DNA of 64,000 nt from Eledone cirrhosa (taxonomy: Eukaryota). The stretch lies in contig OZ024758.1 in NCBI GenBank assembly GCA_964016885.1, positions 28,272,001 to 28,336,000 of the forward strand, given 5' to 3'. The notes beneath the pieces are model-generated. The model was not told the DNA's origin and did no database searches. It was given only the letters and a program-made list of their open reading frames with translations. Shown in pieces: positions 9,041-62,795 of the stretch; the stretch's first letter is position 1; every line of letters starts with the position of its first letter. The translations under genes were made by a program, and so were the position numbers.

Positions 9041-9109
9041 AATAAATGTCTGTTTAAAAAAAATAGTCATTTTACTGAACACCCCTCCCACCTCCCAGTA
9101 CAGCAACTC

Positions 9110-21428: not shown

Positions 21429-21565
21429 TTAAGAAATTTTAAGTTTTATTCCAAATACCATCTTAATGAGAAAGTTAGTTATATTATAAAATCCCTCAAA
21501 ATTCAATATCATTTGAAAAACCATAAACACTACTATACATTATAAATATGGTAACAAAAGGGTTA

Positions 21566-22153: not shown

Positions 22154-22169
22154 TTATTGTAACAATGGT

Positions 22170-25100
22170 TGAACATTCCTGATAAAGTCTCTTCACAAGT
22201 CAAAATATTCCATTGCTCCTGGCAACTGCTCCTTACTGAGGTTTGATCATCTGAGAGTTGATCAATGAAGGTTTGAGTAGGTCTTCTTCTCTCATGAGTT
22301 GCTTCTCACAATAGTAACTTGTGTATAACTTCCTGTTTACTTCTCCAGCAATGTCCTGCAAATCATAAACATCTTTGAGGAATTGTACTTACTATATTGG
22401 GCAAGTTTCCGTATAAACATTCATTTATAATATATTGATACCAGTTTATGTTTTGTACAACCTTAAGTAGTTTAGTGTATGCACTATCTAGTTTCTTCTC
22501 AAGAGCTGGTGTCAGGGTCACTGTACCTGACCATACAACAACACTGACTCAAGAGCTGGTGTCAGGGTCTATGTATCTGATCCATACAACACTGACTCAA
22601 GTGTTGCTGTTAGAGACCATGTACCTGATCCATACAACAACACTGACTCAACTGCAGGTGTCAGAGTCCATGTACCTGATCCATACAACAACACTGACTC
22701 AAGTGTTGGTGTCAGGGTCCATGTATCTAATCCATACAACAACACTGACTCAGGAGCTGGTGTCAGGTTCCATGTACCTGAACCATAGAACAACACTGAC
22801 TCAAGTGCTGGTGTCTGGGTCCATGTACTTGATCCATACAACAATTCTGACTCAACTGCTGGTGTCAGGGTCCATGTACCTGATCCATACAACAACACTG
22901 ACTCAAGTGCTTAGTGTCAGGGACCATGGACCTGATCCATACAACAACACTGGCACAAGTGCTGATGTAAGGGTCCCTGTACATGATCCATACAACACTG
23001 ACTGAAGAGCTGGTGTCAGGGTCCATGTACCTGATCCATACAACACTGACTCAACTGCTGGTGTTAGGGACCATGTACCTAATTCATAAAACAATACTGA
23101 TTCAAGGGCTGGTGTCAGGGTCCATGTATCTGATCCATACAACAGCACTGACTCAAGAGCTGGTGTCAGGGTCCATGTACCTGATCCATACAACACTGAC
23201 TCAAGTGCTGGTGTCAGGGACCATGTACCTGATCCATACAACAACACTGACTCAAGAGCTGGTGTCAGGGACCATGTACCTGATCCATACAACAACACTT
23301 ACTCAAGAGCTGGTGTCAGGGTCCCTGTACCTGATCCATACAACAACACTGACTCAAGAGCTGGTGTCAGGGACCATGTACCTGATCCATACAACAACAC
23401 TTACTCAAGAGGTGGTGTCAGGGTCCCTGTACCTGATCCATACAATAACACTGACTCAAGAGCTGGTGTCAGGGACCATGTACCTGATCCATACAACAAC
23501 ACTTACTCAAGAGGTGGTGTCAGGGTCCCTGTACCTGATCCATACAATAACACTGACTCAAGAGCTGGTGTCAGGGACCATGTACCTGATCCATACAACA
23601 ACACTTACTCAAGAGGTGGTGTCAGGGTCCCTGTACCTGATCCATACAACAACACTGACTCAAGAGCTGGTGTCAGGGACCATGTACCTGATCCAGACGA
23701 CAACACTGGCTCAAGAGCTGGTGTCAGGGTCCATGTACCTAATCCATAAAACAACACTGATTCAAGGGCTGGTGTCAGGGTCCATGTACCTGATCCATAC
23801 AACAACACTGACTCAAGTGCTGGTGTCAGGGTCCCTGTACCTGATCCATACAACACTGACTCAAATTCTGGTGTCAGGGTCCATGTACCTAATCCATAAA
23901 ACAACACTGACTCAAGAGCTGGTGTCAGGGTCCATGTACCTGAACCATACAACAACACTGACTCAAGTGCTGCTGTCAGGGTCCATGTACTTGATCCATA
24001 CAACAACACTGACTCAAGTACTGGTGTTAGGGTCCATGTACCTGAACCATACAACAACACTGACTCAAGTGCTGGTGTCAGGGTCCCTGTACCTAATCCA
24101 TAAAACAACACTGACTCAAGAGCTGGTGTCAGGGTCCATGTACCTGAACCATACAACAACACTGACTCAAGTGCTGCTGTCAGGGTCCATGTACTTGATC
24201 CATACAACAACACTGACTCAAGTACTGGTGTTAGGGTCCATGTACCTGAACCATACAACAACACTGACTCAAGAGCTGGTATCAGGGTCCATGTACCTGA
24301 TCCATACAACAACACTGACTCAAGAGCTGGTGTCAGGGTCCATGTACCTGAACCATACAACAACACTGACTCAAGTGCTGCTGTCAGGGTCCATGTACTT
24401 GATCCATACAACAACACTGACTCAAGTACTGGTGTTAGGGTCCATGTACCTGAACCATACAACAACACTGACTCAAGTGCTGGTGTCTGGGTCCATGTAC
24501 TTGATCCATACAACAACACTGACTCAAGAGCTGGTGTCAGGGTCCATGTACCTGATCCATACAACAACACTGACTCAAGTGCTGGTGTCTGGGTCCATGT
24601 ACCTGATCCATACAACAACACTGACTGAAGAGCTGGTGTCAGGGTCCATGTACCTGATCCATACAACAACACTGACTCAAGAGCTGGTGTCAGGGTCCAT
24701 GTACTTGATCCATACAACAACACTGACTGAAGAGCTGGTGTCAGGGTCCATGTACCTGATCCATACAACAACACTGACTCAAGAGCTGGTGTCAGGGTCC
24801 ATGTACTTGATCCATACAACAACACTGACTGAAGAGCTGGTGTCAGGGTCCCTGTGCCTGATCCATACAACACTGACTCAAGAGCTGGTATCAGGGTCCA
24901 TGTACCTGAGCCATACAACAACACTGACTCAAGTGCTGGTGTCTGGGTCCATGTACTTGATCCATACAACAACACTGACTGAAGAGCTGGTGTCAGGGTC
25001 CATGTACCTGATCCATACAACAACACTGACTCAAGAGCTGGTGTCAGGGTCCATGTACTTGATCCATACAACAACACTGACTCAAGAGCTGGTGTCAGGG

Positions 25101-28100
25101 TCCATGTACCTGAACCATACAACAACACTGACTCAAGTGCTGGTGTCAGGGTCCAAGTACCTGATCCATACAACAACACTGACTCAAGTTCAGGTGCCAG
25201 GGACCATGTACCTGAACCATACAACACTGACTCAAGTGCTGGTGTTAGGGTCCCTGTACCTGATCCATACAACAACACTTACTCAAGAGGTGGTGTCAGG
25301 GTCCCTGTACCTGATCCATACAATAACACTGACTCAAGAGCTGGTGTCAGGGACCATGTACCTGAACCATACAACAACACTTACTCAAGAGGTGGTGTCA
25401 GGGTCCCTGTACCTGATTCATACAATAACACTGACTCAAGAGCTGGTGTCAGGGTCCCTGTACCTGATCCATACAACAATACTGACTCAAGTGCTTGTCT
25501 CAGGGTCCATGTACCTGATCCAGACGACAACACTGGCTCAAGTGCTGGTGTCAGGGTCCATGTACCTGATCCATAAAACAACACTGATTCAAGGGCTGGT
25601 GTCAGGGTCCATGTACCTAATCCATAAAACAACACTGATTCAAGGGCTGGTGTCAGGGTCCATGTACCTGAACCATACAACAACACTGACTCAAGTGCTG
25701 GTGTCAGGGTCCCTGTACCTAATCCATAAAACAACACTGACTCAAGAGCTGGTGTCAGGGTCCATGTACCTGAACCATACAACAACACTGACTCAAGTGC
25801 TGCTGTCAGGGTCCATGTACTTGATCCATACAACAACACTGACTCAAGTACTGGTGTTAGGGTCCATGTACCTGAACCATACAACAACACTGACTCAAGA
25901 GCTGGTATCAGGGTCCATGTACCTGATCCATACAACAACACTGACTCAAGAGCTGGTGTCAGGGTCCATGTACCTGATCCATACAACAACACTGACTCAA
26001 GAGCTGGTATCAGGGTCCATGTACTTGATCCATACAACAATACTGACTCAAGAGCTGGTGTCTGGATCCATGTACTTGATCCATACAACAACAGTGTCTC
26101 AAGTGCTGGTGTCAGGGTCCAAGTACCTGATCCATACAACAACACTGACTCAAGTGCTGGTGTCAGGGTCCATGTACTTGATCCATACAACAATACTGAC
26201 TCAAGAGCTGGTGTCTGGATACATGTACTTGATCCATACAACAACAGTGTCTCAAGTGCTGGTGTCAGGGTCCAAGTACCTGATCCATACAACAACACTG
26301 ACTCAAGTGCTGGTGTCAGGGTCCATGTACTTGATCCATACAACAATACTGACTCAAGAGCTGGTGTCTGGATCCATGTACTTGATCCATACAACAACAG
26401 TGTCTCAAGTGCTGGTGTCAGGGTCCAAGTACCTGATCCATACAACAACACTGACTCAAGTGCTGGTGTCAGGGTCCCTGTACCTGATCCATACAACACT
26501 GACTCAAATTCTGGTGTCAGGGTCCATGTACCTAATCCATAAAACAACACTGATTCAAGGGCTGGTGTCAGGGTCCCTGTACCTGATCCATACAACAACA
26601 CTGACTCAAATTCTGGTGTCAGGGTCCATGTACCTAATCCATACAACAACACTGACTCAAGTGCTGGTGTCAGCGACCATGTACTTGATCCATACAACAA
26701 CACTGACTCAAGAGCTGGTGTCAGGGTCCATGTACCTGATCCAGACGACAATACTGGCTCAAGAGTTGGTGTCAAGGGTCCATGTACCTGATCCATACAA
26801 CAATACTGACTCAAGAGCTGGTGTCTGGATCCATGTACTTGATCCATACAACAACACTGACTCAAGAGCTGGTGTCAGGGTCCATGTACCTGATCCAGAC
26901 GACAATACTGGCTCAAGAGCTGGTGTCAGGGTCCCTGTACCTGATCCATACAACAACACTGACTCAAGTGCTGGTCTCAGGGTCCATGTACCTGATCCAT
27001 ACAACAACACTGACTCAAGAGCTGGTGTCAGGGTCCCTGTACCTGATCCATACAACAACACTGACTCAAGAGCTGGTGTCAGGGTCCATGTACCTAATCC
27101 ATAAAACAACACTGACTCAAGTGCTGGTGTCAGGGTCCATGTACCTGAACAATACAACAACACTGACTCAAGAGCTGGTGTCAGGGTCCCTGTACCTGAT
27201 CCATACAACAACACTGACTCAAGTGCTGGTATCAGGGTCCATGTACCTGAACAATACAACAACACTGACTCAAGAGCTGGTGTCAGGGTCCCTGTACCTG
27301 ATCCATACAACAACACTGACTCAAGTGCTGGTATCAGGGTCCATGTACCTGATCCATACAACAACACTGACTCAAGAGCTGGTGTCAGGGTCCCTGTACC
27401 TGATCCATACAACAACACTGACTCAAGTGCTGGTATCAGGGTCCATGTACCTGATCCATACAACAACACTGACTCAAGAGCTGGTGTCAGGGTCCCTGTA
27501 CCTGATCCATACAACAACACTGACTCAAGTGCTGGTGTCAGGGTCCATGTACCTGATCCATACAACAACACTGACTCAAGAGCTGGTGTCAGGGTCCCTG
27601 TACCTGATCCATACAACAACACTGATTCAAGTGCTGGTCTCAGGGTCCCTGTACCTGAACCATACAACAACACTGACTCAAGAGCTGGTGTCAGGGTCCC
27701 TGTACCTGATCCATACAACAACACTGATTCAAGTGCTGGTCTCAGGGTCCCTGTACCTGAACCATACAACAACACTGACTCAAGAGCTGGTGTCAGGGTC
27801 CCTGTACCTGATCCATACAACAACACTGACTCAAGAGCTGGTGTCAGGGTCCCTGTACCTGATCCATACAACAACACTGACTCAAGTGCTGGTATCAGGG
27901 TCCATGTACCTGATCCATACAACAACACTGACTCAAGAGCTGGTGTCAGGGTCCCTGTACCTGATCCATACAACAACACTGACTCAAGTGCTGGTGTCAG
28001 GGTCCATGTACCTGATCCATACAACAACACTGACTCAAGAGCTGGTGTCAGGGTCCCAGTACCTGATCCATACAACAACACTGATTCAAGTGCTGGTCTC

Positions 28101-31100
28101 AGGGTCCCTGTACCTGAACCATACAACAACACTGACTCAAGAGCTGGTGTCAGGGTCCCTGTACCTGATCCATACAACAACACTGATTCAAGTGCTGGTC
28201 TCAGGGTCCCTGTACCTGAACCATACAACAACACTGACTCAAGAGCTGGTGTCAGGGTCCCTGTACCTGATCCATACAACAACACTGACTCAAGAGCTGG
28301 TGTCAGGGTCCCTGTACCCGATCCATACAACAACACTGACTCAAGTGCTGCTGTCAGGGTCCAAGTACCTGATCCATACAACAACACTGACTCAAGTGCT
28401 GGTGTCAGGGTCCCTGTACCTGATCCATACAACAACACTGATTCAAGGGCTGGTGTCAGGGTCCAAGTACCTGATCCATACAACAACACTGACTCAAGTG
28501 CTGGTGTCTGGGTCCATGTACCTGATCCATACAACAACACTGACTCAAGAGCTGGTATCAGGTTCCATGTACCTGATCCATACAACAACACTGACTCAAG
28601 TGCTGGTGTCAGGGTCCCTGTACCTGATCCATACAACAACACTGACTCAAGAGCTGGTATCAGGGTCCATGTACCTGATCCATACAACAACACTGACTCA
28701 AATTCTGGTGTCAGGGTCCCTGTACCTGATCCATACAACAACACTGACTCAAGAGCTGGTGTCAGGGTGCCTGTACCCGATCCATACAACAACACTGACT
28801 CAAGTGCTGGTGTCTGGGTCCATGTACCTGATCCATACAACAACACTGACTCAAATTCTGGTGTCAGGGTCCATGTACCTGATCCATACAACAACACTGA
28901 CTCAAGAGCTGGTGTCAGGGTCCCTGTACCTGATCCATACAACAACACTGATTCAAGTGCTGGTCTCAGGGTCCATGTACCTGATCCATACAACAACACT
29001 GACTCAAGAGCTGGTGTCAGGGTCCCTGTACCTGATCCATACAACAACACTGATTCAAGTGCTGGTCTCAGGGTCCCTGTACCTGATCCATACAACAACA
29101 CTGACTCAAGTGCTGGTGTCAGGGTCCCTGTACCTGATCTATACAACAACACTGATTCAAGTGCTGGTCTCAGGGTCCATGTACCTGATCCATACAACAA
29201 CACTGACTCAAGTGCTGGTGTCTGGGTCCATGTACCTGATCCATACAACAACACTGACTCAAATTCTGGTGTCAGGGTCCCTGTACCTGATCCATACAAC
29301 AACACTGACTCAAGAGCTGGTGTCAGGGTCCATGTACCTGATCCATACAACAACACTGATTCAAGAGCTGGTGTCAGGGTCCATGTACCTGATCCATACA
29401 ACACTGACTCAACTGCTGGTGTCAGGGTCCATGTACCTGATCCATACAACACTGACTCAACTGCTGGTGTCAGGGTCCCTGTACTTGATCCATACAACAA
29501 CACTGATTCAAGGGCTGGTGTCAGGGTCCATGTACCTGAACCATACAACAATACTGACTCAAGAGCTGGTGTCAGGGTCCCTGTACCTGAACCATACAAC
29601 AACACTGACTCAAGTGCCGGTGTTAGGGACCATGTATCTGATCCATACAACAACACTGACTCAAGAGCTGGTGTCAGCGACCATGTACCTGATCCATACA
29701 ACAACACTGACTCAAGAGCTGGTGTCAGGGTCCCTGTACCTGATCCATACAACAACACTGACTCAAGTGCTGGTGTCTGGGTCCATGTACTTGATCCATA
29801 CAACAACACTGACTCAAGAGCTGGTGTCAGGGTCCATGTACCTGAACCATACAACAACACTGACTCAAGAGCTGGTGTCAGGGTCCCTGTGCCTGATCCA
29901 TACAACAACACTGACTCAAGTGCTGGTGTTAGGGTGCCTGTACCCGATCCATACAACAACACTGACTCAAGTGCTGGTGTCAGGGTCCAAGTACCTGATC
30001 CATACAACAACACTGACTCAAGTGCTGGTGTCTGGGTCCATGTACCTGATCCATACAACAACACTGACTCAAGAGCTGGTATCAGGTTCCATGTACCTGA
30101 TCCATACAACAACACTGACTCAAGTGCTGGTGTCAGGGTCCCTGTACCTGATCCATACAACAACACTGACTCAAGAGCTGGTATCAGGGTCCATGTACCT
30201 GATCCATACAACAACACTGACTCAAATTCTGGTGTCAGGGTCCCTGTACCTGATCCATACAACAACACTGACTCAAGAGCTGGTGTCAGGGTCCCTGTAC
30301 CTGATCCATACAACAACACTGATTCAAGTGCTGGTCTCAGGGTCCATGTACCTGATCCATACAACAACACTGACTCAAGTGCTGGTGTCTGGGTCCATGT
30401 ACCTGATCCATACAACAACACTGACTCAAATTCTGGTGTCAGGGTCCATGTACCTGATCCATACAACAACACTGACTCAAGAGCTGGTGTCAGGGTCCCT
30501 GTACCTGATCCATACAACAACACTGATTCAAGTGCTGGTCTCAGGGTCCATGTACCTGATCCATACAACAACACTGACTCAAGAGCTGGTGTCAGGGTCC
30601 CTGTACCTGATCCATACAACAACACTGATTCAAGTGCTGGTCTCAGGGTCCCTGTACCTGATCCATACAACAACACTGACTCAAGTGCTGGTGTCAGGGT
30701 CCCTGTACCTGATCTATACAACAACACTGATTCAAGTGCTGGTCTCAGGGTCCATGTACCTGATCCATACAACAACACTGACTCAAGTGCTGGTGTCTGG
30801 GTCCATGTACCTGATCCATACAACAACACTGACTCAAATTCTGGTGTCAGGGTCCCTGTACCTGATCCATACAACAACACTGACTCAAGAGCTGGTGTCA
30901 GGGTCCATGTACCTGATCCATACAACAACACTGATTCAAGAGCTGGTGTCAGGGTCCATGTACCTGATCCATACAACACTGACTCAACTGCTGGTGTCAG
31001 GGTCCATGTACCTGATCCATACAACACTGACTCAACTGCTGGTGTCAGGGTCCCTGTACTTGATCCATACAACAACACTGATTCAAGGGCTGGTGTCAGG

Positions 31101-31820
31101 GTCCATGTACCTGAACCATACAACAATACTGACTCAAGAGCTGGTGTCAGGGTCCCTGTACCTGAACCATACAACAATACTGACTCAAGTGCCGGTGTTA
31201 GGGACCATGTATCTGATCCATACAACAACACTGACTCAAGAGCTGGTGTCAGCGACCATGTACCTGATCCATACAACAACACTGACTCAAGAGCTGGTGT
31301 CAGGGTCCCTGTACCTGATCCATACAACAACACTGACTCAAGTGCTGGTGTCTGGGTCCATGTACTTGATCCATACAACAACACTGACTCAAGAGCTGGT
31401 GTCAGGGTCCATGTACCTGAACCATACAACAACACTGACTCAAGAGCTGGTGTCAGGGTCCCTGTGCCTGATCCATACAACAACACTGACTCAAGTGCTG
31501 GTGTTAGGGTGCCTGTACCCGATCCATACAACAACACTGACTCAAGTGCTGGTGTCAGGGTCCAAGTACCTGATCCATACAACAACACTGACTCATGTTC
31601 AGGTGCCAGGGTCCAAGTACCTGATCCATACAACAACACTGACTCAAGTGCTGGTGTCAGGTCCATCTACCTGATCCATACAACACTGACTGAAGTGCTG
31701 GTGTTAGGGTCTCTGTATCTGATCCATATAACACTGACTAAACAGATGTTCTGAAGAATGATATGTTAATTTTTTTCTGGGTAGATCTGACTTCTATATT
31801 CTTTCCATTTTATTCATAGT
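22170..31820 (-). mobile_element. Dead RTE-like LINE remnant (family D) expanded internally by the 51 bp array
   Basis: Minus-strand flank before the array: TMNKMERI*KSDLPRK/INISFFRTSV*SVLYGS; flank after it: TLTPALEKKLDSAYTKLLKVVQNINW...LYGNLPNIVSTI.QRCL*FAGHCWRSKQE..HKLLL*E..RRPTQTFIDQL. Confidence 0.9.
22499..31740. repeat. 51 bp tandem repeat, ~180 copies, some 48 bp variants
   Basis: Unit gactcaagagctggtgtcagggtccatgtacctgatccatacaacaacact; the minus strand translates to ALESVLLYGSGTWTLTP. Confidence 0.98.
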
Positions 31821-31824
31821 AACC

Positions 31825-32000
31825 TATCATCAACAACATCAACGCTCTTTTGCATCCATTTTTCCATTCTTGTTTGTGTTAGATGAGTCATCTATGTTGG
31901 GAGACAAACCTGGCCAGAACTGGCCATGCTGCACCTTGCAGTAAATTTGGCCAGGGATTTTACAGCTGGATTCTTTTCCTAACACCAACCACATTTACAA
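31825..32000 (-). mobile_element. Degenerate RTE 3' UTR fragment
   Basis: ttttacagctggattcttttcctaacaccaaccacatttaca matches the RTE 3' UTR motif at 17757-17800. Confidence 0.65.
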
Positions 32001-32120
32001 TTCTAATATCAATGTCATTTTTTGATGAACTCATTCAGTGGCTCAGCTGTAGTATAGTAAATATATCATGATACTGAGCAAATCTGCTTGCTAAAATGTA
32101 TTCCTTTTCAAGTTATACTT

Positions 32121-32416
32121 GGAGGCACTTGGCTTTGTGGTTAGAGCATTGGGTCTGCAATCGAAAGGTTATGAGTTCAATTCTCAGACCGTGTGATGTG
32201 TTGTTTCCTTGAACAAGACACTTTATTTCACATTGCTCCAGTTTACTCAGCTGTAGAAAGTGGTCGTGTAGGTGCCACTGCAAAAAAGCACCCAGCACTC
32301 ACTGTAAATAAGGTTGGTGTTAGGAAGGGCATCCAGCTGTAGAAATCAAATCAAATCAGAATCAGTTCCCGTCCCACCCTTGCAAGCAGGGAAAAGCGGA
32401 CGTAAAATGATGATGA
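32121..32416 (+). mobile_element. SINE family S2 with an RTE-derived 3' tail
   Basis: tRNA-like head (tggctttgtggttagagc...gagttcaattc), CORE-like segment, then ggttggtgttaggaagggcatccagctgtagaaa and cccacccttgcaagcagggaaaagcggacgtaaaa(tga)n. Confidence 0.8.
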
Positions 32417-33112
32417 TATATATATATATCTGTATATCATCATCATCATCGTTTAACTTATGGTTTGATTATAATATCAATAATACACTCATACAATGCT
32501 CCAATTGCTCACAGCAAATATTACAATTTTTGCTTTGTAACCTTTTTAAAAGCTTAACTGAATGAAATAGTATGTTAAGTATCTCGGCCATGGACATTGA
32601 ACAATGATACTGATAAAGATTGTTGTTATTTCAAAAAGCATTTAGTATTTAGTCATATTGTTCATTGGTTAGTTGTCATTAACATAATAAATAACAATAC
32701 CCTTGAAAATGAATGGATGTTCATTGAAAAGCTGGAATAGAATGTTATTGTTAACCAATAAAAAAAATGGATTTGAAACATTCTAAACTTTTGTATCCTC
32801 CACACAACACTCTAAAACCTTCCTTTATTTCATCACTAACGATGTCAACTAGGAAATGGAATATATTTACTACTTCCGCTAAACTATTTGAGAAGTCCAA
32901 TTTTTAGTATTTCTCTATTTTCTTTTTCCATTATGCAAATCATCATCATTGTCATCATCATCATCGTCATCACTTTACAAATGCAAGTAGAAAATCTAAA
33001 GCTTTTGTTCTAAATCTGTCTGTCTACTTGACATTTCACAGCATTGTTTGTGAACTTAATGATTGCACTGATGATATATTATTGAGTTATTGTCTTCTAT
33101 AAGCTGTGATAA

Positions 33113-33245
33113 GTGGCAAATTGACAGTCATTAGAACATTGGATAGAATGCTCTCTGGGTTCAAATCCCACAGAGGTCAACTTTGCCTTTCCTTCTTTTG
33201 AGATCGATAAAAATGTACGAGGTCCAGTAACAGGGTCAATTCCTC
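33113..33245 (+). mobile_element. Degenerate S1-related SINE
   Basis: gggttcaaatcccacagaggtcaactttgccttt...gatcgataaaa. Confidence 0.65.
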
Positions 33246-33265
33246 CCTATAGCTTTTTCTTAATA

Positions 33266-33443
33266 CCCCCTCTCTCTCCCCCTCTCTCTCTCTTTCTCTC
33301 CCGCTGCCCCCTCTCTATCTCCCCTTCCCCCTCTCTCCCTCCATCTGCCCCTCTCTCCCACCCTCTGCCCTCTCTCTCTCTCCCTCTGCCTGCACCCTCT
33401 CTCACTCTGCCCCCTCTCTCTCTCCCTCTTCCCTCTCTCTCTC
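33266..33443. repeat. CT-rich low-complexity tract
   Basis: Polypyrimidine (CT)n-like run directly abutting the 70 bp array. Confidence 0.9.
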
Positions 33444-39400: not shown

Positions 39401-42400
39401 TGTATAATGTCTGCAGACAATGTATGATGTTACATGGTAGGGAGACATGGGCTGTGAATGGAGAGGATACTGTATAATGTCTGCAGACAATGTTATATGT
39501 TACATGGTAGGGAGACATGGGCTGTGAATGGAGAGGATACTGTATAATGTCTGCAGACAATGTATGATGTTACATGGTAGGGAGACATGGGCTGTGAATG
39601 GAGAGGATACTGTATAATGTCTGCAGACAATGTTATGATGTTACATGGTAGGGAGACATGGGCTGTGAATGGAGAGGATACTGTATAATGTCTGCAGACA
39701 ATGTTATATGTTACATGGTAGGGAGACATGGGCTGTGAATGGAGAGGATACTGTATAATGTCTGCAGACAATGTATGATGTTACATGGTAGGGAGACATG
39801 GGCTGTGAATGGAGAGGATACTGTATAATGTCTGCAGACAATGTATGATGTTACATGGTAGGGAGACATGGGCTGTGAATGGAGAGGATACTGTATAATG
39901 TCTGCAGACAATGTATGATGTTACATGGTAGGGAGACATGGGCTGTGAATGGAGAGGATACTGTATAATGTCTGCAGACAATGTATGATGTTACATGGTA
40001 GGGAGACATGGGCTGTGAATGGAGAGGATACTGTATAATGTCTGCAGACAATGTATGATGTTACATGGTAGGGAGACATGGGCTGTGAATGGAGAGGATA
40101 CTGTATAATGTCTGCAGACAATGTATGATGTTACATGGTAGGGAGACATGGGCTGTGAATGGAGAGGATACTGTATAATGTCTGCAGACAATGTATGATG
40201 TTACATGGTAGGGAGACATGGGCTGTGAATGGAGAGGATACTGTATAATGTCTGCAGACAATGTATGATGTTACATGGTAGGGAGACATGGGCTGTGAAT
40301 GGAGAGGATACTGTATAATGTCTGCAGACAATGTATGATGTTACATGGTAGGGAGACATGGGCTGTGAATGGAGAGGATACTGTATAATGTCTGCAGACA
40401 ATGTATGATGTTACATGGTAGGGAGACATGGGCTGTGAATGGAGAGGATACTGTATAATGTCTGCAGACAATGTATGATGTTACATGGTAGGGAGACATG
40501 GGCTGTGAATGGAGAGGATACTGTATAATGTCTGCAGACAATGTATGATGTTACATGGTAGGGAGACATGGGCTGTGAATGGAGAGGATACTGTATAATG
40601 TCTGCAGACAATGTATGATGTTACATGGTAGGGAGACATGGGCTGTGAATGGAGAGGATACTGTATAATGTCTGCAGACAATGTATGATGTTACATGGTA
40701 GGGAGACATGGGCTGTGAATGGAGAGGATACTGTATAATGTCTGCAGACAATGTATGATGTTACATGGTAGGGAGACATGGGCTGTGAATGGAGAGGATA
40801 CTGTATAATGTCTGCAGACAATGTATGATGTTACATGGTAGGGAGACATGGGCTGTGAATGGAGAGGATACTGTATAATGTCTGCAGACAATGTATGATG
40901 TTACATGGTAGGGAGACATGGGCTGTGAATGGAGAGGATACTGTATAATGTCTGCAGACAATGTATGATGTTACATGGTAGGGAGACATGGGCTGTGAAT
41001 GGAGAGGATACTGTATAATGTCTGCAGACAATGTATATGTTACATGGTAGGGAGACATGGGCTGTGAATGGAGAGGATACTGTATAATGTCTGCAGACAA
41101 TGTATGATGTTACATGGTAGGGAGACATGGGCTGTGAATGGAGAGGATACTGTATAATGTCTGCAGACAATGTATGATGTTACATGGTAGGGAGACATGG
41201 GCTGTGAATGGAGAGGATACTGTATAATGTCTGCAGACAATGTATGATGTTACATGGTAGGGAGACATGGGCTGTGAATGGAGAGGATACTGTATAATGT
41301 CTGCAGACAATGTATGATGTTACATGGTAGGGAGACATGGGCTGTGAATGGAGAGGATACTGTATAATGTCTGCAGACAATGTATGATGTTACATGGTAG
41401 GGAGACATGGGCTGTGAATGGAGAGGATACTGTATAATGTCTGTAGACAATGTATATGTTACATGGTAGGGAGACATGGGCTGTGAATGGAGAGGATACT
41501 GTATGATGTCTGCAGACAATGTATGATGTTACATGGTAGGGAGACATGGGCTGTGAATGGAGAGGATACTGTATAATGTCTGCAGACAATGTATGATGTT
41601 ACATGGTAGGGAGACATGGGCTGTGAATGGAGAGGATACTGTATAATGTCTGCAGACAATGTATGATGTTACATGGTAGGGAGACATGGGCTGTGAATGG
41701 AGAGGATACTGTATAATGTCTGTAGACAATGTATGATGTTACATGGTAGGGAGACATGGGCTGTGAATGGAGAGGATACTGTATAATGTCTGCAGACAAT
41801 GTTATATGTTACATGGTAGGGAGACATGGGCTGTGAATGGAGAGGATACTGTATAATGTCTGCAGACAATGTATGATGTTACATGGTAGGGAGACATGGG
41901 CTGTGAATGGAGAGGATACTGTATAATGTCTGCAGACAATGTATGATGTTACATGGTAGGGAGACATGGGCTGTGAATGGAGAGGATACTGTATAATGTC
42001 TGCAGACAATGTATGATGTTACATGGTAGGGAGACATGGGCTGTGAATGGAGAGGATACTGTATAATGTCTGTAGACAATGTATGATGTTACATGGTAGG
42101 GAGACATGGGCTGTGAATGGAGAGGATACTGTATAATGTCTGTAGACAATGTATGATGTTACATGGTAGGGAGACATGGGCTGTGAATGGAGAGGATACT
42201 GTATAATGTCTGTAGACAATGTATGATGTTACATGGTAGGGAGACATGGGCTGTGAATGGAGAGGATACTGTATAATGTCTGCAGACAATGTATGATGTT
42301 ACATGGTAGGGAGACATGGGCTGTGAATGGAGAGGATACTGTATAATGTCTGCAGACAATGTATGATGTTACATGGTAGGGAGACATGGGCTGTGAATGG

Positions 42401-45400
42401 AGAGGATACTGTATGATGTCTGCAGACAATGTATGATGTTACATGGTAGGGAGACATGGGCTGTGAATGGAGAGGATACTGTATAATGTCTGCAGACAAT
42501 GTATGATGTTACATGGTAGGGAGACATGGGCTGTGAATGGAGAGGATACTGTATAATGTCTGCAGACAATGTATGATGTTACATGGTAGGGAGACATGGG
42601 CTGTGAATGGAGAGGATACTGTATAATGTCTGCAGACAATGTATGATGTTACATGGTAGGGAGACATGGGCTGTGAATGGAGAGGATACTGTATGATGTC
42701 TGCAGACAATGTATGATGTTACATGGTAGGGAGACATGGGCTGTGAATGGAGAGGATACTGTATAATGTCTGCAGACAATGTATGATGTTACATGGTAGG
42801 GAGACATGGGCTGTGAATGGAGAGGATACTGTATAATGTCTGCAGACAATGTATGATGTTACATGGTAGGGAGACATGGGCTGTGAATGGAGAGGATACT
42901 GTATAATGTCTGCAGACAATGTATGATGTTACATGGTAGGGAGACATGGGCTGTGAATGGAGAGGATACTGTATAATGTCTGCAGACAATGTATGATGTT
43001 ACATGGTAGGGAGACATGGGCTGTGAATGGAGAGGATACTGTATAATGTCTGCAGACAATGTATGATGTTACATGGTAGGGAGACATGGGCTGTGAATGG
43101 AGAGGATACTGTATAATGTCTGCAGACAATGTATGATGTTACATGGTAGGGAGACATGGGCTGTGAATGGAGAGGATACTGTATAATGTCTGAAGACAAT
43201 GTATGATGTTACATGGTAGGGAGACATGGGCTGTGAATGGAGAGGATACTGTATAATGTCTGCAGACAATGTATGATGTTACATGGTAGGGAGACATGGG
43301 CTGTGAATGGAGAGGATACTGTATGATGTCTGCAGACAATGTATGATGTTACATGGTAGGGAGACATGGGCTGTGAATGGAGAGGATACTGTATAATGTC
43401 TGCAGACAATGTATGATGTTACATGGTAGGGAGACATGGGCTGTGAATGGAGAGGATACTGTATAATGTCTGCAGACAATGTATGATGTTACATGGTAGG
43501 GAGACATGGGCTGTGAATGGAGAGGATACTGTATAATGTCTGTAGACAATGTTATGATGTTACATGGTAGGGAGACATGGGCTGTGAATGGAGAGGATAC
43601 TGTATGATGTCTGCAGACAATGTATGATGTTACATGGTAGGGAGACATGGGCTGTGAATGGAGAGGATACTGTATAATGTCTGCAGACAATGTATGATGT
43701 TACATGGTAGGGAGACATGGGCTGTGAATGGAGAGGATACTGTATAATGTCTGCAGACAATGTATGATGTTACATGGTAGGGAGACATGGGCTGTGAATG
43801 GAGAGGATACTGTATAATGTCTGTAGACAATGTTATATGTTACATGGTAGGGAGACATGGGCTGTGAATGGAGAGGATACTGTATGATGTCTGCAGACAA
43901 TGTATGATGTTACATGGTAGGGAGACATGGGCTGTGAATGGAGAGGATACTGTATAATGTCTGCAGACAATGTATGATTTTACATGGTAGGGAGACATGG
44001 GCTGTGAATGGAGAGGATACTGTATAATGTCTGCAGACAATGTATGATGTTACATGGTAGGGAGACATGGGCTGTGAATGGAGAGGATACTGTATAATGT
44101 CTGTAGACAATGTTATATGTTACATGGTAGGGAGACATGGGCTGTGAATGGAGAGGATACTGTATGATGTCTGCAGACAATGTATGATGTTACATGGTAG
44201 GGAGACATGGGCTGTGAATGGAGAGGATACTGTATAATGTCTGCAGACAATGTATGATGTTACATGGTAGGGAGACATGGGCTGTGAATGGAGAGGATAC
44301 TGTATAATGTCTGCAGACAATGTATGATGTTACATGGTAGGGAGACATGGGCTGTGAATGGAGAGGATACTGTATAATGTCTGTAGACAATGTATGATGT
44401 TACATGGTAGGGAGACATGGGCTGTGAATGGAGAGGATACTGTATAATGTCTGCAGACAATGTATGATGTTACATGGTAGGGAGACATGGGCTGTGAATG
44501 GAGAGGATACTGTATAATGTCTGTAGACAATGTTATATGTTACATGGTAGGGAGACATGGGCTGTGAATGGAGAGGATACTGTATGATGTCTGCAGACAA
44601 TGTATGATGTTACATGGTAGGGAGACATGGGCTGTGAATGGAGAGGATACTGTATAATGTCTGCAGACAATGTATGATGTTACATGGTAGGGAGACATGG
44701 GCTGTGAATGGAGAGGATACTGTATAATGTCTGTAGACAATGTATGATGTTACATGGTAGGGAGACATGGGCTGTGAATGGAGAGGAGACTGTATAATGT
44801 CTGTAGACAATGTATGATGTTACATGGTAGGGAGACATGGGCTGTGAATGGAGAGGAGACTGTATAATGTCTGCAGACAATGTTATATGTTACATGGTAG
44901 GGAGACATGGGCTGTGAATGGAGAGGATACTGTATAATGTCTGTAGACAATGTTATATGTTACATGGTAGGGAGACATGGGCTGTGAATGGAGAGGATAC
45001 TGTATAATGTCTGCAGACAATGTATGATGTTACATGGTAGGGAGACATGGGCTGTGAATGGAGAGGATACTGTATGATGTCTGCAGACAATGTATGATGT
45101 TACATGGTAGGGAGACATGGGCTGTGAATGGAGAGGATACTGTATAATGTCTGTAGACAATGTATGATGTTACATGGTAGGGAGACATGGGCTGTGAATG
45201 GAGAGGATACTGTGTAATGTCTGTAGACAATGTATGATGTTACATGGTAGGGAGACATGGGCTGTGAATGGAGAGGATACTGTATAATGTCTGTAGACAA
45301 TGTATGATGTTACATGGTAGGGAGACATGGGCTGTGAATGGAGAGGAGACTGTATAATGTCTGCAGACAATGTTATATGTTACATGGTAGGGAGACATGG

Positions 45401-48400
45401 GCTGTGAATGGAGAGGATACTGTATGATGTCTGCAGACAATGTATGATGTTACATGGTAGGGAGACATGGGCTGTGAATGGAGAGGATACTGTATGATGT
45501 CTGCAGACAATGTATGATGTTACATGGTAGGGAGACATGGGCTGTGAATGGAGAGGATACTGTATAATGTCTGCAGACAATGTATGATGTTACATGGTAG
45601 GGAGACATGGGCTGTGAATGGAGAGGATACTGTATAATGTCTGCAGACAATGTATGATGTTACATGGTAGGGAGACATGGGCTGTGAATGGAGAGGATAC
45701 TGTATGATGTCTGCAGACAATGTATGATGTTACATGGTAGGGAGACATGGGCTGTGAATGGAGAGGAGACTGTATAATGTCTGCAGACAATTTATGATGT
45801 TACATGGTAGGGAGACATGGGCTGTGAATGGAGAGGATACTGTATAATGTCTGCAGACAATGTATGATGTTACATGGTAGGGAGACATGGGCTGTGAATG
45901 GAGAGGATACTGTATGATGTCTGCAGACAATGTATGATGTTACATGGTAGGGAGACATGGGCTGTGAATGGAGAGGAGACTGTATAATGTCTGCAGACAA
46001 TTTATGATGTTACATGGTAGGGAGACATGGGCTGTGAATGGAGAGGATACTGTATAATGTCTGCAGACAATGTATGATGTTACATGGTAGGGAGACATGG
46101 GCTGTGAATGGAGAGGATACTGTATAATGTCTGCAGACAATGTATGATGTTATATGGTAGGGAGACATGGGCTGTGAATGGAGTGGATACTGTATAATGT
46201 CTGCAGACAATGTATGATGTTACATGGTAGGGAGACATGGGCTGTGAATGGAGAGGATACTGTATAATGTCTGTAGACAATGTATGATGTTACATGGTAG
46301 GGAGACATGGGCTGTGAATGGAGAGGATACTGTATAATGTCTGCAGACAATGTATGATGTTATATGGTAGGGAGACATGGGCTGTGAATGGAGAGGATAC
46401 TGTATAATGTCTGTAGACAATGTATGATGTTACATGGTAGGGAGACATGGGCTGTGAATGGAGAGGATACTGTATAATGTCTGTAGACAATGTATGATGT
46501 TACATGGTAGGGAGACATGGGCTGTGAATGGGGAGGATACTGTATAATGTCTGCAGACAATGTATGATGTTACATGGTAGGGAGACATGGGCTGTGAATG
46601 GAGAGGATACTGTGTAATGTCTGTAGACAATGTATGATGTTACATGGTAGGGAGACATGGGCTGTGAATGGAGAGGATACTGTGTAATGTCTGTAGACAA
46701 TGTATGATGTTACATGGTAGGGAGACATGGGCTGTGAATGGAGTGGATACTGTATGATGTCTGCAGACAATGTATGATGTTACATGGTAGGGAGACATGG
46801 GCTGTGAATGGGGAGGATACTGTATAATGTCTGTAGACAATGTATGATGTTACATGGTAGGGAGACATGGGCTGTGAATGGGGAGGATACTGTATAATGT
46901 CTGCAGACAATGTATGATGTTACATGGTAGGGAGACATGGGCTGTGAATGGAGAGGATACTGTATAATGTCTGCAGACAATGTATGATGTTACATGGTAG
47001 GGAGACATGGGCTGTGAATGGGGAGGATACTGTATAATGTCTGCAGACAATGTATGATGTTACATGGTAGGGAGACATGGGCTGTGAATGGAGAGGATAC
47101 TGTGTAATGTCTGTAGACAATGTATGATGTTACATGGTAGGGAGACATGGGCTGTGAATGGAGAGGATACTGTATGATGCCTACAGACAATGTATGATGT
47201 TACATGGTAGGGAGACATGGGCTGTGAATGGAGAGGATACTGTATAATGTCTGCAGACCATGTATGATGTTACATGGTAAGGGAGACATGGGCTGTGAAT
47301 GGAGAGGATACTGTATGATGCCTACAGACAATGTATGATGTTACATGGTAGGGAGACATGGGCTGTGAATGGAGAGGATACTGTATGATGTCTGCAGACA
47401 ATGTATGATGTTACATGGTAGGGAGACATGGGCTGTGAATGGAGAGGATACTGTATAATGTCTGCAGACCATGTATGATGTTACATGGTAAGGGAGACAT
47501 GGGCTGTGAATGGAGAGGATACTGTATAATGTCTGCAGACCATGTATGATGTTACATGGTAGGGAGACATGGGCTGTGAATGGAGAGGATACTGTATAAT
47601 GTCTGCAGACCATGTATGATGTTACATGGTAGGGAGACATGGGCTGTGAATGGAGAGGATACTGTATGATGTCTGCAGACAATGTATGATGTTACATGGT
47701 AGGGAGACATGGGCTGTGAATGGAGAGGATACTGTATGATGTCTGCAGACAATGTATGATGTTACATGGTAGGGAGACATGGGCTGTGAATGGAGAGGAT
47801 ACTGTATGATGCCTACAGACAATGTATGATGTTACATGGTAGGGAGACATGGGCTGTGAATGGAGAGGATACTGTATAATGTCTGCAGACAATGTATGAT
47901 GTTACATGGTAGGGAGACATGGGCTGTGAATGGAGAGGATACTGTATGATGCCTACAGACAATGTATGATGTTACATGGTAGGGAGACATGGGCTGTGAA
48001 TGGAGAGGATACTGTATGATGTCTGCAGACAATGTATGATGTTACATGGTAGGGAGACATGGGCTGTGAATGGAGAGGATACTGTATGATGCCTACAGAC
48101 AATGTATGATGTTACATGGTAGGGAGACATGGGCTGTGAATGGAGAGGATACTGTATAATGTCTGCAGACAATGTATGATGTTACATGGTAGGGAGACAT
48201 GGGCTGTGAATGGAGAGGATACTGTATGATGCCTACAGACAATGTATGATGTTACATGGTAGGGAGACATGGGCTGTGAATGGAGAGGATACTGTATAAT
48301 GTCTGCAGACAATGTATGATGTTACATGGTAGGGAGACATGGGCTGTGAATGGAGAGGATACTGTATAATGTCTGCAGACAATGTATGATGTTACATGGT

Positions 48401-51400
48401 AGGGAGACATGGGCTGTGAATGGAGAGGATACTGTGTAATGTCTGTAGACAATGTATGATGTTACATGGTAGGGAGACATGGGCTGTGAATGGAGAGGAT
48501 ACTGTATAATGTCTGCAGACAATGTATGATGTTACATGGTAGGGAGACATGGGCTGTGAATGGAGAGGATACTGTATAATGTCTGCAGACAATGTATGAT
48601 GTTACATGGTAGGGAGACATGGGCTGTGAATGGAGAGGATACTGTATGATGCCTACAGACAATGTATGATGTTACATGGTAGGGAGACATGGGCTGTGAA
48701 TGGAGAGGATACTGTATAATGTCTGCAGACAATGTATGATGTTACATGGTAGGGAGACATGGGCTGTGAATGGAGAGGATACTGTATAATGTCTGCAGAC
48801 AATGTATGATGTTACATGGTAGGGAGACATGGGCTGTGAATGGAGAGGATACTGTGTAATGTCTGTAGACAATGTATGATGTTACATGGTAGGGAGACAT
48901 GGGCTGTGAATGGAGAGGATACTGTATAATGTCTGCAGACAATGTATGATGTTACATGGTAGGGAGACATGGGCTGTGAATGGAGAGGATACTGTATAAT
49001 GTCTGCAGACAATGTATGATGTTACATGGTAGGGAGACATGGGCTGTGAATGGAGAGGATACTGTATAATGTCTGCAGACAATGTATGATGTTACATGGT
49101 AGGGAGACATGGGCTGTGAATGGAGAGGATACTGTATAATGTCTGTAGACAATGTATGATGTTACATGGTAGGGAGACATGGGCTGTGAATGGAGAGGAT
49201 ACTGTATGATGCCTACAGACAATGTATGATGTTACATGTTAAGGAGACATGGGCTGTGAATGGAGAGGATACTGTGTAATGTCTGTAGACAATGTATGAT
49301 GTTACATGGTAGGGAGACATGGGCTGTGAATGGAGAGGATACTGTATAATGTCTGCAGACAATGTATAATGTTACATGGTAGGGAGACAAGGGCTGTGAA
49401 TGGAGAGGATACTGTATAATGTCTGTAGACAATGTATGATGTTACATGGTAGGGAGACAAGGGCTGTGAATGGAGAGGATACTGTATAATGTCTGCAGAC
49501 AATGTATGATGTTACATGGTAGGGAGACATGGGCTGTGAATGGAGAGGATACTGTATAATGTCTGCAGACAATGTATGATGTTACATGGTAGGGAGACAT
49601 GGGCTGTGAATGGAGAGGATACTGTATAATGTCTGCAGACAATGTATGATGTTACATGGTAGGGAGACAAGGGCTGTGAATGGAGAGGATACTGTATAAT
49701 GTCTGCAGACAATGTATGATGTTACATGGTAGGGAGACATGGGCTGTGAATGGAGAGGATACTGTATAATGTCTGCAGACAATGTATGATGTTACATGGT
49801 AGGGAGACATGGGCTGTGAATGGAGAGGATACTGTATGATGTCTGCAGACAATGTATGATGTTACATGGTAGGGAGACATGGGCTGTGAATGGAGAGGAT
49901 ACTGTATGATGTCTGCAGACAATGTATGATGTTACATGGTAGGGAGACATGGGCTGTGAATGGAGAGGATACTGTATAATGTCTGCAGACAATGTATGAT
50001 GTTACATGGTAGGGAGACATGGGCTGTGAATGGAGAGGATACTGTATGATGTCTGCAGACAATGTATGATGTTACATGGTAGGGAGACATGGGCTGTGAA
50101 TGGAGAGGATACTGTATGATGTCTGCAGACAATGTATGATGTTACATGGTAGGGAGACATGGGCTGTGAATGGAGTGGATACTGTATAATGTCTGCAGAC
50201 AATGTATGATGTTACATGGTAGGGAGACATGGGCTGTGAATGGAGAGGATACTGTATAATGTCTGTAGACAATGTATGATGTTACATGGTAGGGAGACAT
50301 GGGCTGTGAATGGAGAGGATACTGTATAATGTCTGTAGACAATGTATGATGTTACATGGTAGGGAGACATGGGCTGTGAATGGAGAGGATACTGTATGAT
50401 GTCTGCAGACAATGTATGATGTTACATGGTAGGGAGACATGGGCTGTGAATGGAGAGGATACTGTATAATGTCTGCAGACAATGTATGATGTTACATGGT
50501 AGGGAGACATGGGCTGTGAATGGAGAGGATACTGTATGATGTCTGCAGACAATGTATGATGTTACATGGTAGGGAGACATGGGCTGTGAATGGAGAGGAT
50601 ACTGTATGATGTCTGCAGACAATGTATGATGTTACATGGTAGGGAGACATGGGCTGTGAATGGAGAGGATACTGTATAATGTCTGCAGACAATGTATGAT
50701 GTTACATGGTAGGGAGACATGGGCTGTGAATGGAGAGGATACTGTATGATGTCTGCAGACAATGTATGATGTTACATGGTAGGGAGACATGGGCTGTGAA
50801 TGGAGAGGATACTGTATGATGTCTGCAGACAATGTATGATGTTACATGGTAGGGAGACATGTGCTGTGAATGGAGTGGATACTGTATAATGTCTGCAGAC
50901 AATGTATGATGTTACATGGTAGGGAGACATGGGCTGTGAATGGAGAGGATACTGTATAATGTCTGTAGACAATGTATGATGTTACATGGTAGGGAGACAT
51001 GGGCTGTGAATGGAGAGGATACTGTATAATGTCTGTAGACAATGTATGATGTTACATGGTAGGGAGACATGGGCTGTGAATGGAGAGGATACTGTATGAT
51101 GTCTGCAGACAATGTATGATGTTACATGGTAGGGAGACATGGGCTGTGAATGGAGAGGATACTGTATAATGTCTGCAGACAATGTATGATGTTACATGGT
51201 AGGGAGACATGGGCTGTGAATGGAGAGGATACTGTATAATGTCTGCAGACAATGTATGATGTTACATGGTAGGGAGACATGGGCTGTGAATGGAGAGGAT
51301 ACTGTATAATGTCTGTAGACAATGTTATATGTTACATGGTAGGGAGACATGGGCTGTGAATGGAGAGGATACTGTATGATGTCTGCAGACAATGTATGAT

Positions 51401-52211
51401 GTTACATGGTAGGGAGACATGGGCTGTGAATGGAGAGGATACTGTGTAATGTCTGCAGACAATGTATGATGTTACATGGTAGGGAGACAAGGGCTGTGAA
51501 TGGAGAGGATACTGTATAATGTCTGCAGACAATGTATGATGTTACATGGTAGGGAGACAAGGGCTGTGAATGGAGAGGATACTGTATAATGTCTGCAGAC
51601 AATGTATGATGTTACATGGTAGGGAGACAAGGGCTGTGAATGGAGAGGATACTGTATAATGTCTGCAGACAATGTATGATGTTACATGGTAGGGAGACAA
51701 GGGCTGTGAATGGAGAGGATACTGTATGATGTCTGTAGACAATGTATGATGTTACATGGTAGGGAGACATGGGCTGTGAATGGAGAGGATACTGTATAAT
51801 GTCTGCAGACAATGTATGATGTTACATGGTAGGGAGACATGGGCTGTGAATGGAGAGGATACTGTATGATGTCTGCAGACAATGTATGATGTTACATGGT
51901 AGGGAGACATGGGCTGTGAATGGAGAGGAGACTGTATGATGTCTGCAGACAATGTATGATGTTACATGGTAGGGAGACATGGGCTGTGAATGGAGAGGAT
52001 ACTGTATAATGTCTGCAGACAATGTATGATGTTACATGGTAGGGAGACATGGGCTGTGAATGGAGTGGATACTGTATAATGTCTGTAGACAATGTATGAT
52101 GTTACATGGTAGGGAGACATGGGCTGTGAATGGAGAGGATACTGTATAATGTCTGTAGACAATGTATGATGTTACATGGTAGGGAGACATGGGCTGTGAA
52201 TGGAGTGGATA
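33444..52211. repeat. 70 bp satellite, ~268 copies, 18.8 kb
   Basis: Unit aggatactgtataatgtctgcagacaatgtatgatgttacatggtagggagacatgggctgtgaatggag; one plus frame reads ILYNVCRQCMMLHGRETWAVNGED. Confidence 0.99.
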
Positions 52212-52325
52212 GGCAATGTCAGGAGAGAAATGAAGGAAACTGCTTCATTTCTGATTGTCCAATATTAATGCGAGAGGATGACAACGTATAGATGGACTGA
52301 GATGGACACGGGTCAGGATAGTATT
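52212..52325 (+). mobile_element. RTE remnant continuing from the last 70 bp unit
   Basis: Reads ...WAVNGVDRQCQERNEGN then, after a frameshift, LSNINARG*QRIDGLR; compare RTE WALCAEDIRRLERNEACMLRWMCNSNIRERQSINELR. Confidence 0.75.
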
Positions 52326-56500: not shown

Positions 56501-56597
56501 GGTAAAGGGTTAATGATGCAGTCACATTAACTTTGGTTTCACAATAACACTAAGTATGTTTATATAGACATCATATACTGAGTTAGCAAATAATAAT

Positions 56598-62687: not shown

Positions 62688-62795
62688 ACAGGCTAGGAAC
62701 AAAGTTAGATTTACTCATCATATTTCAACTGACATTTGCAGCAACAAGCTACAACTACCAATAAATCAAACTCAGATAATAGTGCAGCCAACCAA

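What the first reader, a model, noticed from the sequence alone, without database searches (positions are those of the whole stretch)
22170..52325. Two neighbouring giant satellites were independently amplified from the same motif of the RTE reverse transcriptase ORF
Seen: the 51 bp array (minus strand, ALESVLLYGSGTWTLTP) and the 70 bp array (plus strand, ILYNVCRQCMMLHGRETWAVNGED) differ in unit length and DNA sequence, yet both correspond to the L[Y/H]GSETW motif that follows the RT core in RTE elements in this window (VESVLLYWSETWTL near 9500; RLYDACIRTAMLHGSETWALCAED near 3610 and 18520). They come from different RTE families, lie on opposite strands 1.7 kb apart and together fill 28 kb. 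Known: transposon-derived satellites exist in general. Inference: hitting the same ~60 bp of a >3 kb ORF twice suggests either a duplication hotspot in this motif or retention of arrays matching a conserved RTE segment. Because they face opposite ways, any read-through transcript would be antisense to one RTE type, a possible small-RNA silencing source. Caveat: 5' truncation enriches 3' regions, which raises the chance of coincidence.
Basis: partly seen in the sequence, partly recalled or inferred. Interest (0 to 1): 0.9.

Follow-up and report, generated by a model that had tools for sequence, protein, structure and literature searches.

The report
Recurrent minisatellite hotspot inside RTE retrotransposons
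Both long arrays sit in register inside decayed copies of two different LINE-type retrotransposons, and the same 50-70-base piece has seeded arrays at dozens of other sites, mostly near chromosome ends, likely through recombination-driven duplication and likely some copying between sites; no function is shown.

Summary
Observation confirmed: a 51-bp array (182 units) and a 70-bp array (268 units), 1.7 kb apart, each grown from the GSETW segment of a different RTE family. The 51-bp array has parent sequence on both sides, the 70-bp array on its 3' side. The hotspot is real genome-wide: at least 37 anchored loci in families A/C/D plus 12 other family-B2 arrays, with about ten unit lengths. Of 78 copies picked by upstream flank alone, 9 carry a GSETW array against 4 tandem repeats elsewhere in the ORF. 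It is not unique: the WYGHV and PRKTW motifs also seed many arrays; WKKFRE few. Arrays lie near chromosome ends (33 of 35, against 7 of 39 parent copies). Unexplained: 47-bp arrays share a two-base junction absent from single-unit parents (23 and 22 of 25, against 0 of 22), although their flanks are not one clade (AU p=0.003). This points to copying between loci. The 51-bp array is one member of a dispersed family. Arrays of this size are common in distal parts of this genome. The silencing idea is untested and weak. Verdict: a new variant of transposon-derived multilocus minisatellites.

The parts
22498..31733 (-). 51-bp minisatellite, about 182 units, one unit = 17 codons (ALESVLLYGSGTWTLTP) of RTE family B2
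   Evidence: modal unit 49 of 51 identical to the single-copy B2 majority
31734..31820 (-). upstream remnant of the host B2 copy, in register with the first unit; 5'-truncated (left limit of homology approximate)
   Evidence: 80 aligned columns
22160..22497 (-). downstream remnant of the host B2 copy (reads on TLTPALEKKLD...), in register with the last unit
   Evidence: 342 aligned columns
31821..33265 (.). spacer: mixed unique DNA and pieces of high-copy short repeats
33266..33443 (+). degenerate CT microsatellite abutting the first 70-bp unit; possibly grown from the CT-rich F-S-L codons of the parent (inference)
33444..52211 (+). 70-bp minisatellite, about 268 units, from the RLYDAC...LHGSETWAV...ED segment of an old subfamily (D type) of the family-A lineage; no second 70-bp array among the 60 listed matches
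52212..52300 (+). degenerate downstream remnant of the host RTE copy (ERNE... in register); right end approximate
691..4410 (+). near-intact RTE family-A copy: endonuclease, RT, PHD-like insert, one stop codon, TGA-repeat tail; used as reference
18125..19861 (-). 5'-truncated family-A copy with a single GSETW unit
54200..55690 (-). 5'-truncated family-A-related copy with a single GSETW unit
9100..9810 (-). 3' fragment of family B1 (relative of B2, not the parent of the 51-bp array), single unit
21170..21430 (-). short degenerate 3' fragment of an old C/D-type copy, single unit

Best explanation
Each array sits in register inside a decayed RTE retrotransposon copy and repeats that copy's GSETW segment, and this segment is one of at least three positions in the last 400 bases of the ORF that have become arrays at many loci, likely by a first duplication after insertion followed by recombination-driven growth in distal chromosome regions, with likely copying of junctions or whole arrays between loci. 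Shown: in-register flanks, mostly single-unit parents, many loci and unit lengths, excess over coverage, distal position, a shared non-parental junction in non-monophyletic hosts, and one trio of near-identical array-bearing copies with different insertion flanks. Inferred: slippage or unequal exchange at 4-5-bp direct repeats sets the register (probability 0.6); unequal crossover or conversion drives growth (0.8); inter-locus copying explains the shared junction (0.6); the arrays are neutral by-products (0.85). The adjacency of the two arrays is likely a product of a locally unstable distal region, not a designed pair.
For: In-register flanks at the window and at most of the fetched loci. Doubled GSETW pattern: 2145 matches against 14 for the reversed control; 37 anchored loci; the equally detectable WKKFRE pattern: 11 matches at 4 loci, with single-copy baselines of 20 and 14 in 1.19 Mb and retention of 11 and 15 of 27 family-C copies. 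Copies picked by upstream flank only: arrays in 7 of 39 B2 and 2 of 39 C copies; 9 of 13 ORF-derived tandem repeats lie at GSETW (p=1.5e-5 at an assumed 15% share, and 0.003 at 25% after dropping one neighbouring copy). Distal: 33 of 35 placed arrays within 25 Mb of an end against 7 of 39 parent copies (p=3e-9); 2 of 4 C copies within 10 Mb of an end carry arrays against 0 of 35 others (p=0.008). Junction: G in 23 and A in 22 of 25 arrays against 0 of 22 single C copies; one clade rejected (AU p=0.003, and 0.0009 without CpG-type columns). L031/L032/L035 share 94-99% identity up to the element's 3' tail only. The B2 unit is bounded by a 5-bp repeat, exact in 12 of 24 single copies.
Against: Direct repeats of 5 bp or more at 30-75 bp spacing occur at about 30 other places in each family, and none was listed at the 47-bp register, so microhomology does not explain why this site is hot. 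Much of the locus excess is one 47-bp family; counted by unit type, GSETW (about 10) is no richer than PRKTW (about 10 in the first 100 of 458 rows) and only 2-3 times WKKFRE (4 loci). The B2 tree is star-like and one clade is not rejected (AU p=0.148); B2 distal bias is weak (p=0.02). 40 of 45 inner-unit variants outside the junction are shared with the local first or last unit, so any imported tract must be short or later overwritten. The flank queries came from array-bearing copies, which may favour relatives with arrays, and best-score picking may favour well-preserved interior copies. No GSETW array occurred among 201 blind arrays. No RT-core motif was tested as a doubled pattern.
Confidence: 0.68

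Rival explanations
1. Seeded source elements: a source copy of each family already carried the duplication (in frame for the 51-bp unit) and spread it by retrotransposition, as in LTR12 or Gmr9; arrays then grew locally.
For: It explains the shared non-parental junction of the 47-bp arrays. L031/L032/L035 share sequence exactly to the 3' tail and differ in 5' end, as retrotransposed sisters would. Inner units are closer to the family majority (7%) than their flanks are (15%). One clade is not rejected for B2.
Against: Most copies are single-unit (32 of 39 B2 and 37 of 39 C lack an array). One clade is rejected for the 47-bp arrays, which occur in C-type and intermediate hosts, with no diagnostic flank column. 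None of 35 C copies more than 10 Mb from an end has even a dimer at the site. It does not explain the roughly ten other unit lengths.
Confidence: 0.15
2. Birth during insertion: the reverse transcriptase pauses and slips back at this segment, so duplications arise at integration; any shared junction bases come from a fixed templating step.
For: RTE slippage during retrotransposition is proposed for 3' microsatellites (PMC2887409, passages). Several arrays begin at or near the 5' end of their host, including the 70-bp array. Young copies also carry 46- and 40-bp duplications (L118, L119). The WYGHV segment resembles the 47-bp junction (seen).
Against: It predicts dimers wherever copies insert, but they are distal. 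The WYGHV segment has the parental A, not G, in the single copies read. No shared hairpin: only the 70-bp dimer folds better than shuffles (z about -3.3); the 51-, 47- and 38-bp dimers do not.
Confidence: 0.1
3. Arrays matching a conserved RTE segment are retained as small-RNA sources that silence RTEs.
For: The three hot segments are conserved coding motifs of the 3' region, and the two arrays point in opposite directions.
Against: The hosts are old decayed subfamilies; the 70-bp unit is 70% identical to the near-intact family with at most 8 matching bases in a row. Conserved motifs are what my patterns can detect, so the link to conservation is partly ascertainment. Unrelated arrays of equal size are common nearby.
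Confidence: 0.05
4. No hotspot: coincidence from 3'-biased coverage in an array-rich genome.
For: Coverage rises toward the 3' end (about 20 domains over the RT core, 29-36 over the last 150 codons), and arrays are abundant.
Against: WKKFRE, 35 codons upstream with nearly the same coverage and better pattern retention, has 4 loci against at least 37; 9 of 13 in the flank-picked copies.
Confidence: 0.04

Closest known systems
Alu-derived human minisatellites and TE hotspots for tandem repeats (Ahmed and Liang 2012, PMC3389668; read parts 1-3 of 4)
   Same: Arrays of 10-100-bp units grown in place from a part of a retroelement; multilocus families; some regions of an element (AluS 59-137 and 176-206, two LTR12 regions) are favoured.
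   Different: Here the source is a coding segment of a LINE ORF, the homologous segment is hit in two distant families, arrays reach 180-270 units (about 89 kb at C1:11.04-11.13 Mb) against a mean of 2.3-2.4 units for Alu, and they are strongly distal, whereas that paper saw no genomic hotspots.
Mouse B1-derived (GGCAGA)n VNTR family (Bois 1998) and MaLR-derived Ms6-hm/Hm-2 (Kelly 1994); seen only as table and reference entries in PMC6947457 and PMC9659126
   Same: Repeated expansion from one site of a retroelement at several loci.
   Different: Those units are a few bases long and come from a SINE or LTR; here 30-98-bp units come from an ORF, with a shared non-parental junction.
Haber and Louis 1998 model (5-10-bp flanking repeats); seen as described in PMC3389668 and PMC6947457
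   Same: The 51-bp unit lies between two 5-bp direct repeats in single-unit parents.
   Different: No such repeat was found at the 47-bp register, and equal repeats elsewhere seed nothing.
LINE-ORF-related satellites: chicken HinfI (CR1), Phodopus PROsat (L1 ORF2), cetacean common satellite; passages of PMC9659126
   Same: Tandem DNA derived from a LINE, including ORF parts.
   Different: Those are listed as single satellite families; here many short-unit arrays remain embedded in their host copies.
RTE-generated microsatellite families of Lepidoptera (Tay 2010, PMC2887409; passages)
   Same: RTE elements as progenitors of multilocus tandem repeats; abundant 3' partial copies.
   Different: Those are simple repeats of the 3' tail; here the repeats are inside the ORF.
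Element-borne minisatellites (LTR12; soybean Gmr9, PMC3305785, abstract only)
   Same: Same unit at many loci inside one element family.
   Different: There the array travels with the element; here most copies are single-unit.

Membership tests
TE-derived multilocus minisatellite (Alu/B1 type) | Head-to-tail units of 10-100 bp | tested here: met
   51 and 70 bp
TE-derived multilocus minisatellite (Alu/B1 type) | Array embedded in register in the parent element | tested here: met
   51-bp array on both sides, 70-bp array on the 3' side; other loci
TE-derived multilocus minisatellite (Alu/B1 type) | Same site expanded at several loci while most parent copies are single-unit | tested here: met
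   7 of 39 B2 and 2 of 39 C copies; the 70-bp unit itself was seen at one locus only
TE-derived multilocus minisatellite (Alu/B1 type) | 5-10-bp direct repeats bounding the unit in the parent | tested here: inconclusive
   Met for the 51-bp unit (12 of 24 exact), not found for the 47-bp unit, parent of the 70-bp unit not available
TE-derived multilocus minisatellite (Alu/B1 type) | Accumulation near chromosome ends | tested here: met
   33 of 35 against 7 of 39; weak for B2
TE-derived multilocus minisatellite (Alu/B1 type) | Length variation between individuals | not testable with these tools
   One assembly; the listed runs come from at most one sample
Element-borne minisatellite (LTR12/Gmr9 type) | Array present in the source element; carriers form a clade | tested here: not met
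   47-bp arrays: AU p=0.003 and 0.0009. B2 alone is inconclusive (p=0.148)
RTE-clade non-LTR retrotransposon (parent) | Single ORF with AP endonuclease and RT, no RNase H | tested here: met
   Family-A copy at 691: PF03372/PF14529 and PF00078, no RNase H hit. B2 known only from 3' parts
RTE-clade non-LTR retrotransposon (parent) | 3' end with short simple repeats; short 3' UTR | tested here: inconclusive
   TGA-repeat tail present, but the UTR of the family-A copy is about 370 bp
RTE-clade non-LTR retrotransposon (parent) | RT tree placement with RTE-1, JAM1, BovB | not tested
Classical centromeric satellite DNA | Very long arrays in or around centromeres | tested here: not met
   9 and 19 kb arrays among dispersed repeats; centromere position unknown
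piRNA/siRNA source locus | Strand-biased small RNAs from the locus | not testable with these tools
   No RNA run was available to lay

The most novel reading that the evidence does not exclude
Minisatellites spread laterally through a LINE family: an existing array serves as a template that converts single-unit copies at other distal loci into arrays, passing on its junction, so that one founding duplication colonises dozens to hundreds of unrelated insertions. The window's 51-bp array would be one such recipient: it shares a derived base with 3 of 12 other B2 arrays and 0 of 26 single copies (post hoc).
Probability: 0.35. Interest if true: 0.75.

Novelty: new variant of a known kind. Interest (0 to 1): 0.5.

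Why it matters
A 2022 review (PMC9659126, passage seen) finds no conclusive evidence that particular parts of transposable elements preferentially give rise to tandem repeats, and Ahmed and Liang could assign a birth mechanism to only 6% of human cases. This genome offers hundreds of dated parent copies with and without arrays at defined ORF positions, in two distant families, so birth site, register, chromosomal position and transfer between loci can be tested directly. If the shared junction reflects copying between dispersed copies, it is a route for minisatellite spread that I did not find described in ten literature searches. No biological function is shown.

Tried and rejected
RNA: no RNA holder was listed for the spacer, which is no evidence on expression; the three runs of unrecorded kind, at most one sample, only showed contigs matching parts of the spacer. 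MLRWM as a cold control (23 against 23) was rejected because only 1 of 27 family-C copies still matches the pattern. The VLLYG count (966 against 511) has too high a background; only its listed loci were used. The long-period GSETW search (2193 against 18) was swamped by one array. A shared sequence signal: ACATG, CATGG, TGGTG and GTGGTG are not enriched in 75 blind array units. A shared hairpin: not found. Segmental duplication of array loci: no shared 3' flank of 150 bp or more among 25 loci. A protein made of the 17-residue repeat: none at E<=0.001 among 8000 scored candidates, and no doubled motif in 240 homologues. The blind sample had too few RTE-derived arrays for a position map: 2 of 201 (a third hit was an inserted non-ORF repeat). 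The 43-, 72-, 42-, 37- and 28-bp arrays of the window do not align to the window's RTE copies above shuffles. Earlier findings: none. The first family-C tree had rows with non-homologous tails and was redone.
Full report
Observation. The window is C19:28.27-28.34 Mb of a 3.0-Gb genome; the few named close homologues include Octopus bimaculoides proteins, so an octopod is likely (inference). A near-intact element at 691-4410 has endonuclease, RT and a PHD-like insert in one ORF; I keep the label RTE, but no clade tree was run. The 51-bp array reads straight out of and back into RTE sequence; the 70-bp array does so on its 3' side. The parent of the 51-bp unit is a family I call B2 (49 of 51 identical). 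The closest single-copy matches of the 70-bp unit are 84-86% identical members of an old subfamily.

Is it a hotspot? A doubled GSETW codon pattern has 2145 matches against 14 for the reversed control. An anchored pattern that counts once per array gives 37 loci; it caught 6 of the 17 loci listed for C1-C2, so the true number is probably nearer 100 (inference). Unit lengths seen are 30, 32, 40, 46, 47, 59/66, 66, 70 and 98 bp in the A/C/D lineage, and 51/48 bp in B2; one 66-bp array spans about 89 kb. Controls: WKKFRE 11 matches at 4 loci, PRKTW 458 matches with 17 RTE-like loci in the first 100 rows, WYGHV 2332 matches with 11 anchored loci. Single-motif baselines in 1.19 Mb of blind sequence are within threefold of each other, and WKKFRE is retained in 15 of 27 family-C copies against 11 for GSETW, so WKKFRE is a fair cold control. 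MLRWM is not (1 of 27). In an independent test I picked copies by upstream flank only (all 39 non-query matches of each were fetched): 7 B2 and 2 C copies carry GSETW arrays, and 4 other ORF-derived tandem repeats were found, two of them dimers. That is 9 of 13 at the pre-named site (p=1.5e-5 at an assumed 15% share; 0.003 at 25% with one neighbouring copy dropped). So the hotspot is real but shared with WYGHV and PRKTW, and one 47-bp family supplies much of the locus count.

Where arrays form. 33 of 35 placed anchored arrays (2 on small contigs dropped) lie within 25 Mb of a chromosome end, against 7 of 39 parent copies (p=3e-9). Among flank-picked C copies, 2 of 4 within 10 Mb of an end carry arrays and 0 of 35 others do. 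B2 shows a weaker bias. Distal regions are array-rich in general: 12 of 119 blind stretches lie wholly in one array, and two fetched RTE copies hold two arrays each (L123, L129). This fits growth by unequal exchange where recombination is high, as described for minisatellites (PMC6947457, passages); recombination rate itself was not measured. With roughly 200 such arrays concentrated distally, one adjacent pair in the genome is not far-fetched (rough inference).

How they start. The B2 unit lies between two TTGAG repeats (exact in 12 of 24 single copies), as the Haber-Louis model expects. But about 30 equal repeat pairs exist in each family, and none was listed at the 47-bp register. No shared motif or hairpin was found. 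Why these sites are hot remains open.

The unexplained part. Inner units of 47-bp arrays carry G and A at two junction positions in 23 and 22 of 25 loci (three of them near-copies), where 22 of 22 single C copies have A and G; G occurs in 1 of 61 single copies of any subfamily. Yet the hosts are not one clade (17 arrays against 42 other rows, two near-copies dropped; AU p=0.003, and 0.0009 without CpG-type columns), show no diagnostic flank column, and share no 3' flank. The rest of the unit is local: 40 of 45 inner variants match the first or last unit. L031, L032 and L035, within 1.3 Mb on C1, are 94-99% identical up to the element's tail and differ beyond it and at the 5' end, which shows that array-bearing segments do get copied between loci, by conversion or by retrotransposition in trans. 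For B2 the tree is star-like (AU p=0.148); a derived base of the window's array recurs in 3 of 12 other arrays and 0 of 26 single copies (p=0.009, post hoc). I therefore favour copying between loci over seeded source elements, which would put dimers in chromosome interiors too.

Function. Nothing shown. The silencing idea is weak: the 70-bp unit is 70% identical to the near-intact family, and RTE copies already lie on both strands of the window.

Known and new. TE-derived minisatellites, hotspots within AluS and LTR12, and flanking-repeat birth are known (PMC3389668, parts 1-3 of 4 read; PMC6947457, PMC9659126 and PMC2887409, passages; PMC3305785, abstract). Bois 1998, Kelly 1994, Jurka and Gentles 2006 and Haber and Louis 1998 were seen only as cited there. 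Ten searches (listings only, apart from the papers named) returned no report of ORF-internal minisatellite hotspots in RTEs or cephalopods; the library lacks most subscription papers. Family names A, B1, B2, C and D are mine. Verdict: new variant of a known kind, interest 0.5.

Noticed in passing
window 53653-53922 and 55693-56501; also five places in the C19 neighbours, L081, L117, L127: A 72-bp unit (60- and 70-bp variants) forms short, near-identical arrays at many unrelated sites, one abutting the 5' end of the RTE copy at 55690; it looks like a mobile tandem repeat.
   Followed up: partly
L017-L019 (about 15-39 kb left of the window): A 71-bp array of about 270 plus 57 units is interrupted by two apparently identical B1 fragments 2652 bp apart, duplicated with the array.
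   Followed up: partly
L019:7954-9771 (-): Open 605-codon frame that resembles a hAT-type transposase (recalled, not searched).
   Followed up: no
75 blind array units: ACAGCT occurs in 11 units against 1.6 expected from shuffles (top of all 6-mers, post hoc).
   Followed up: no
window 26759-31666 (-): The 51-bp array keeps a 1635-codon stop-free frame in the RTE sense; expected from a 17-codon unit without stops; no protein match.
   Followed up: yes
window 53377-53450: 37-bp dimer that reads AAVLCYG-T, faintly like the motif; no alignment to window RTEs above shuffles.
   Followed up: partly
window 5411-8954, 52462-53299, 62795-64000: Three further minisatellites (43, 42 and 28 bp) with no RTE match.
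   Followed up: partly
L123, L129: One RTE copy holds two arrays: GSETW plus PRKTW (L123) and GSETW plus WYGHV (L129). Excluding loci fetched for a second motif, 1 of 18 array copies and 0 of 38 single copies had a second array.
   Followed up: partly
L226:4421-4738: 80-bp array that by eye reads RWLGHV, possibly the WYGHV site of another LINE family; not picked up by the profiles.
   Followed up: no
G000 C1-C4: Four chromosomes of 379-443 Mb beside many of 22-136 Mb; some B2 arrays lie deep inside them (C1:313 Mb, C2:270 Mb), which might mark former ends (speculation).
   Followed up: no
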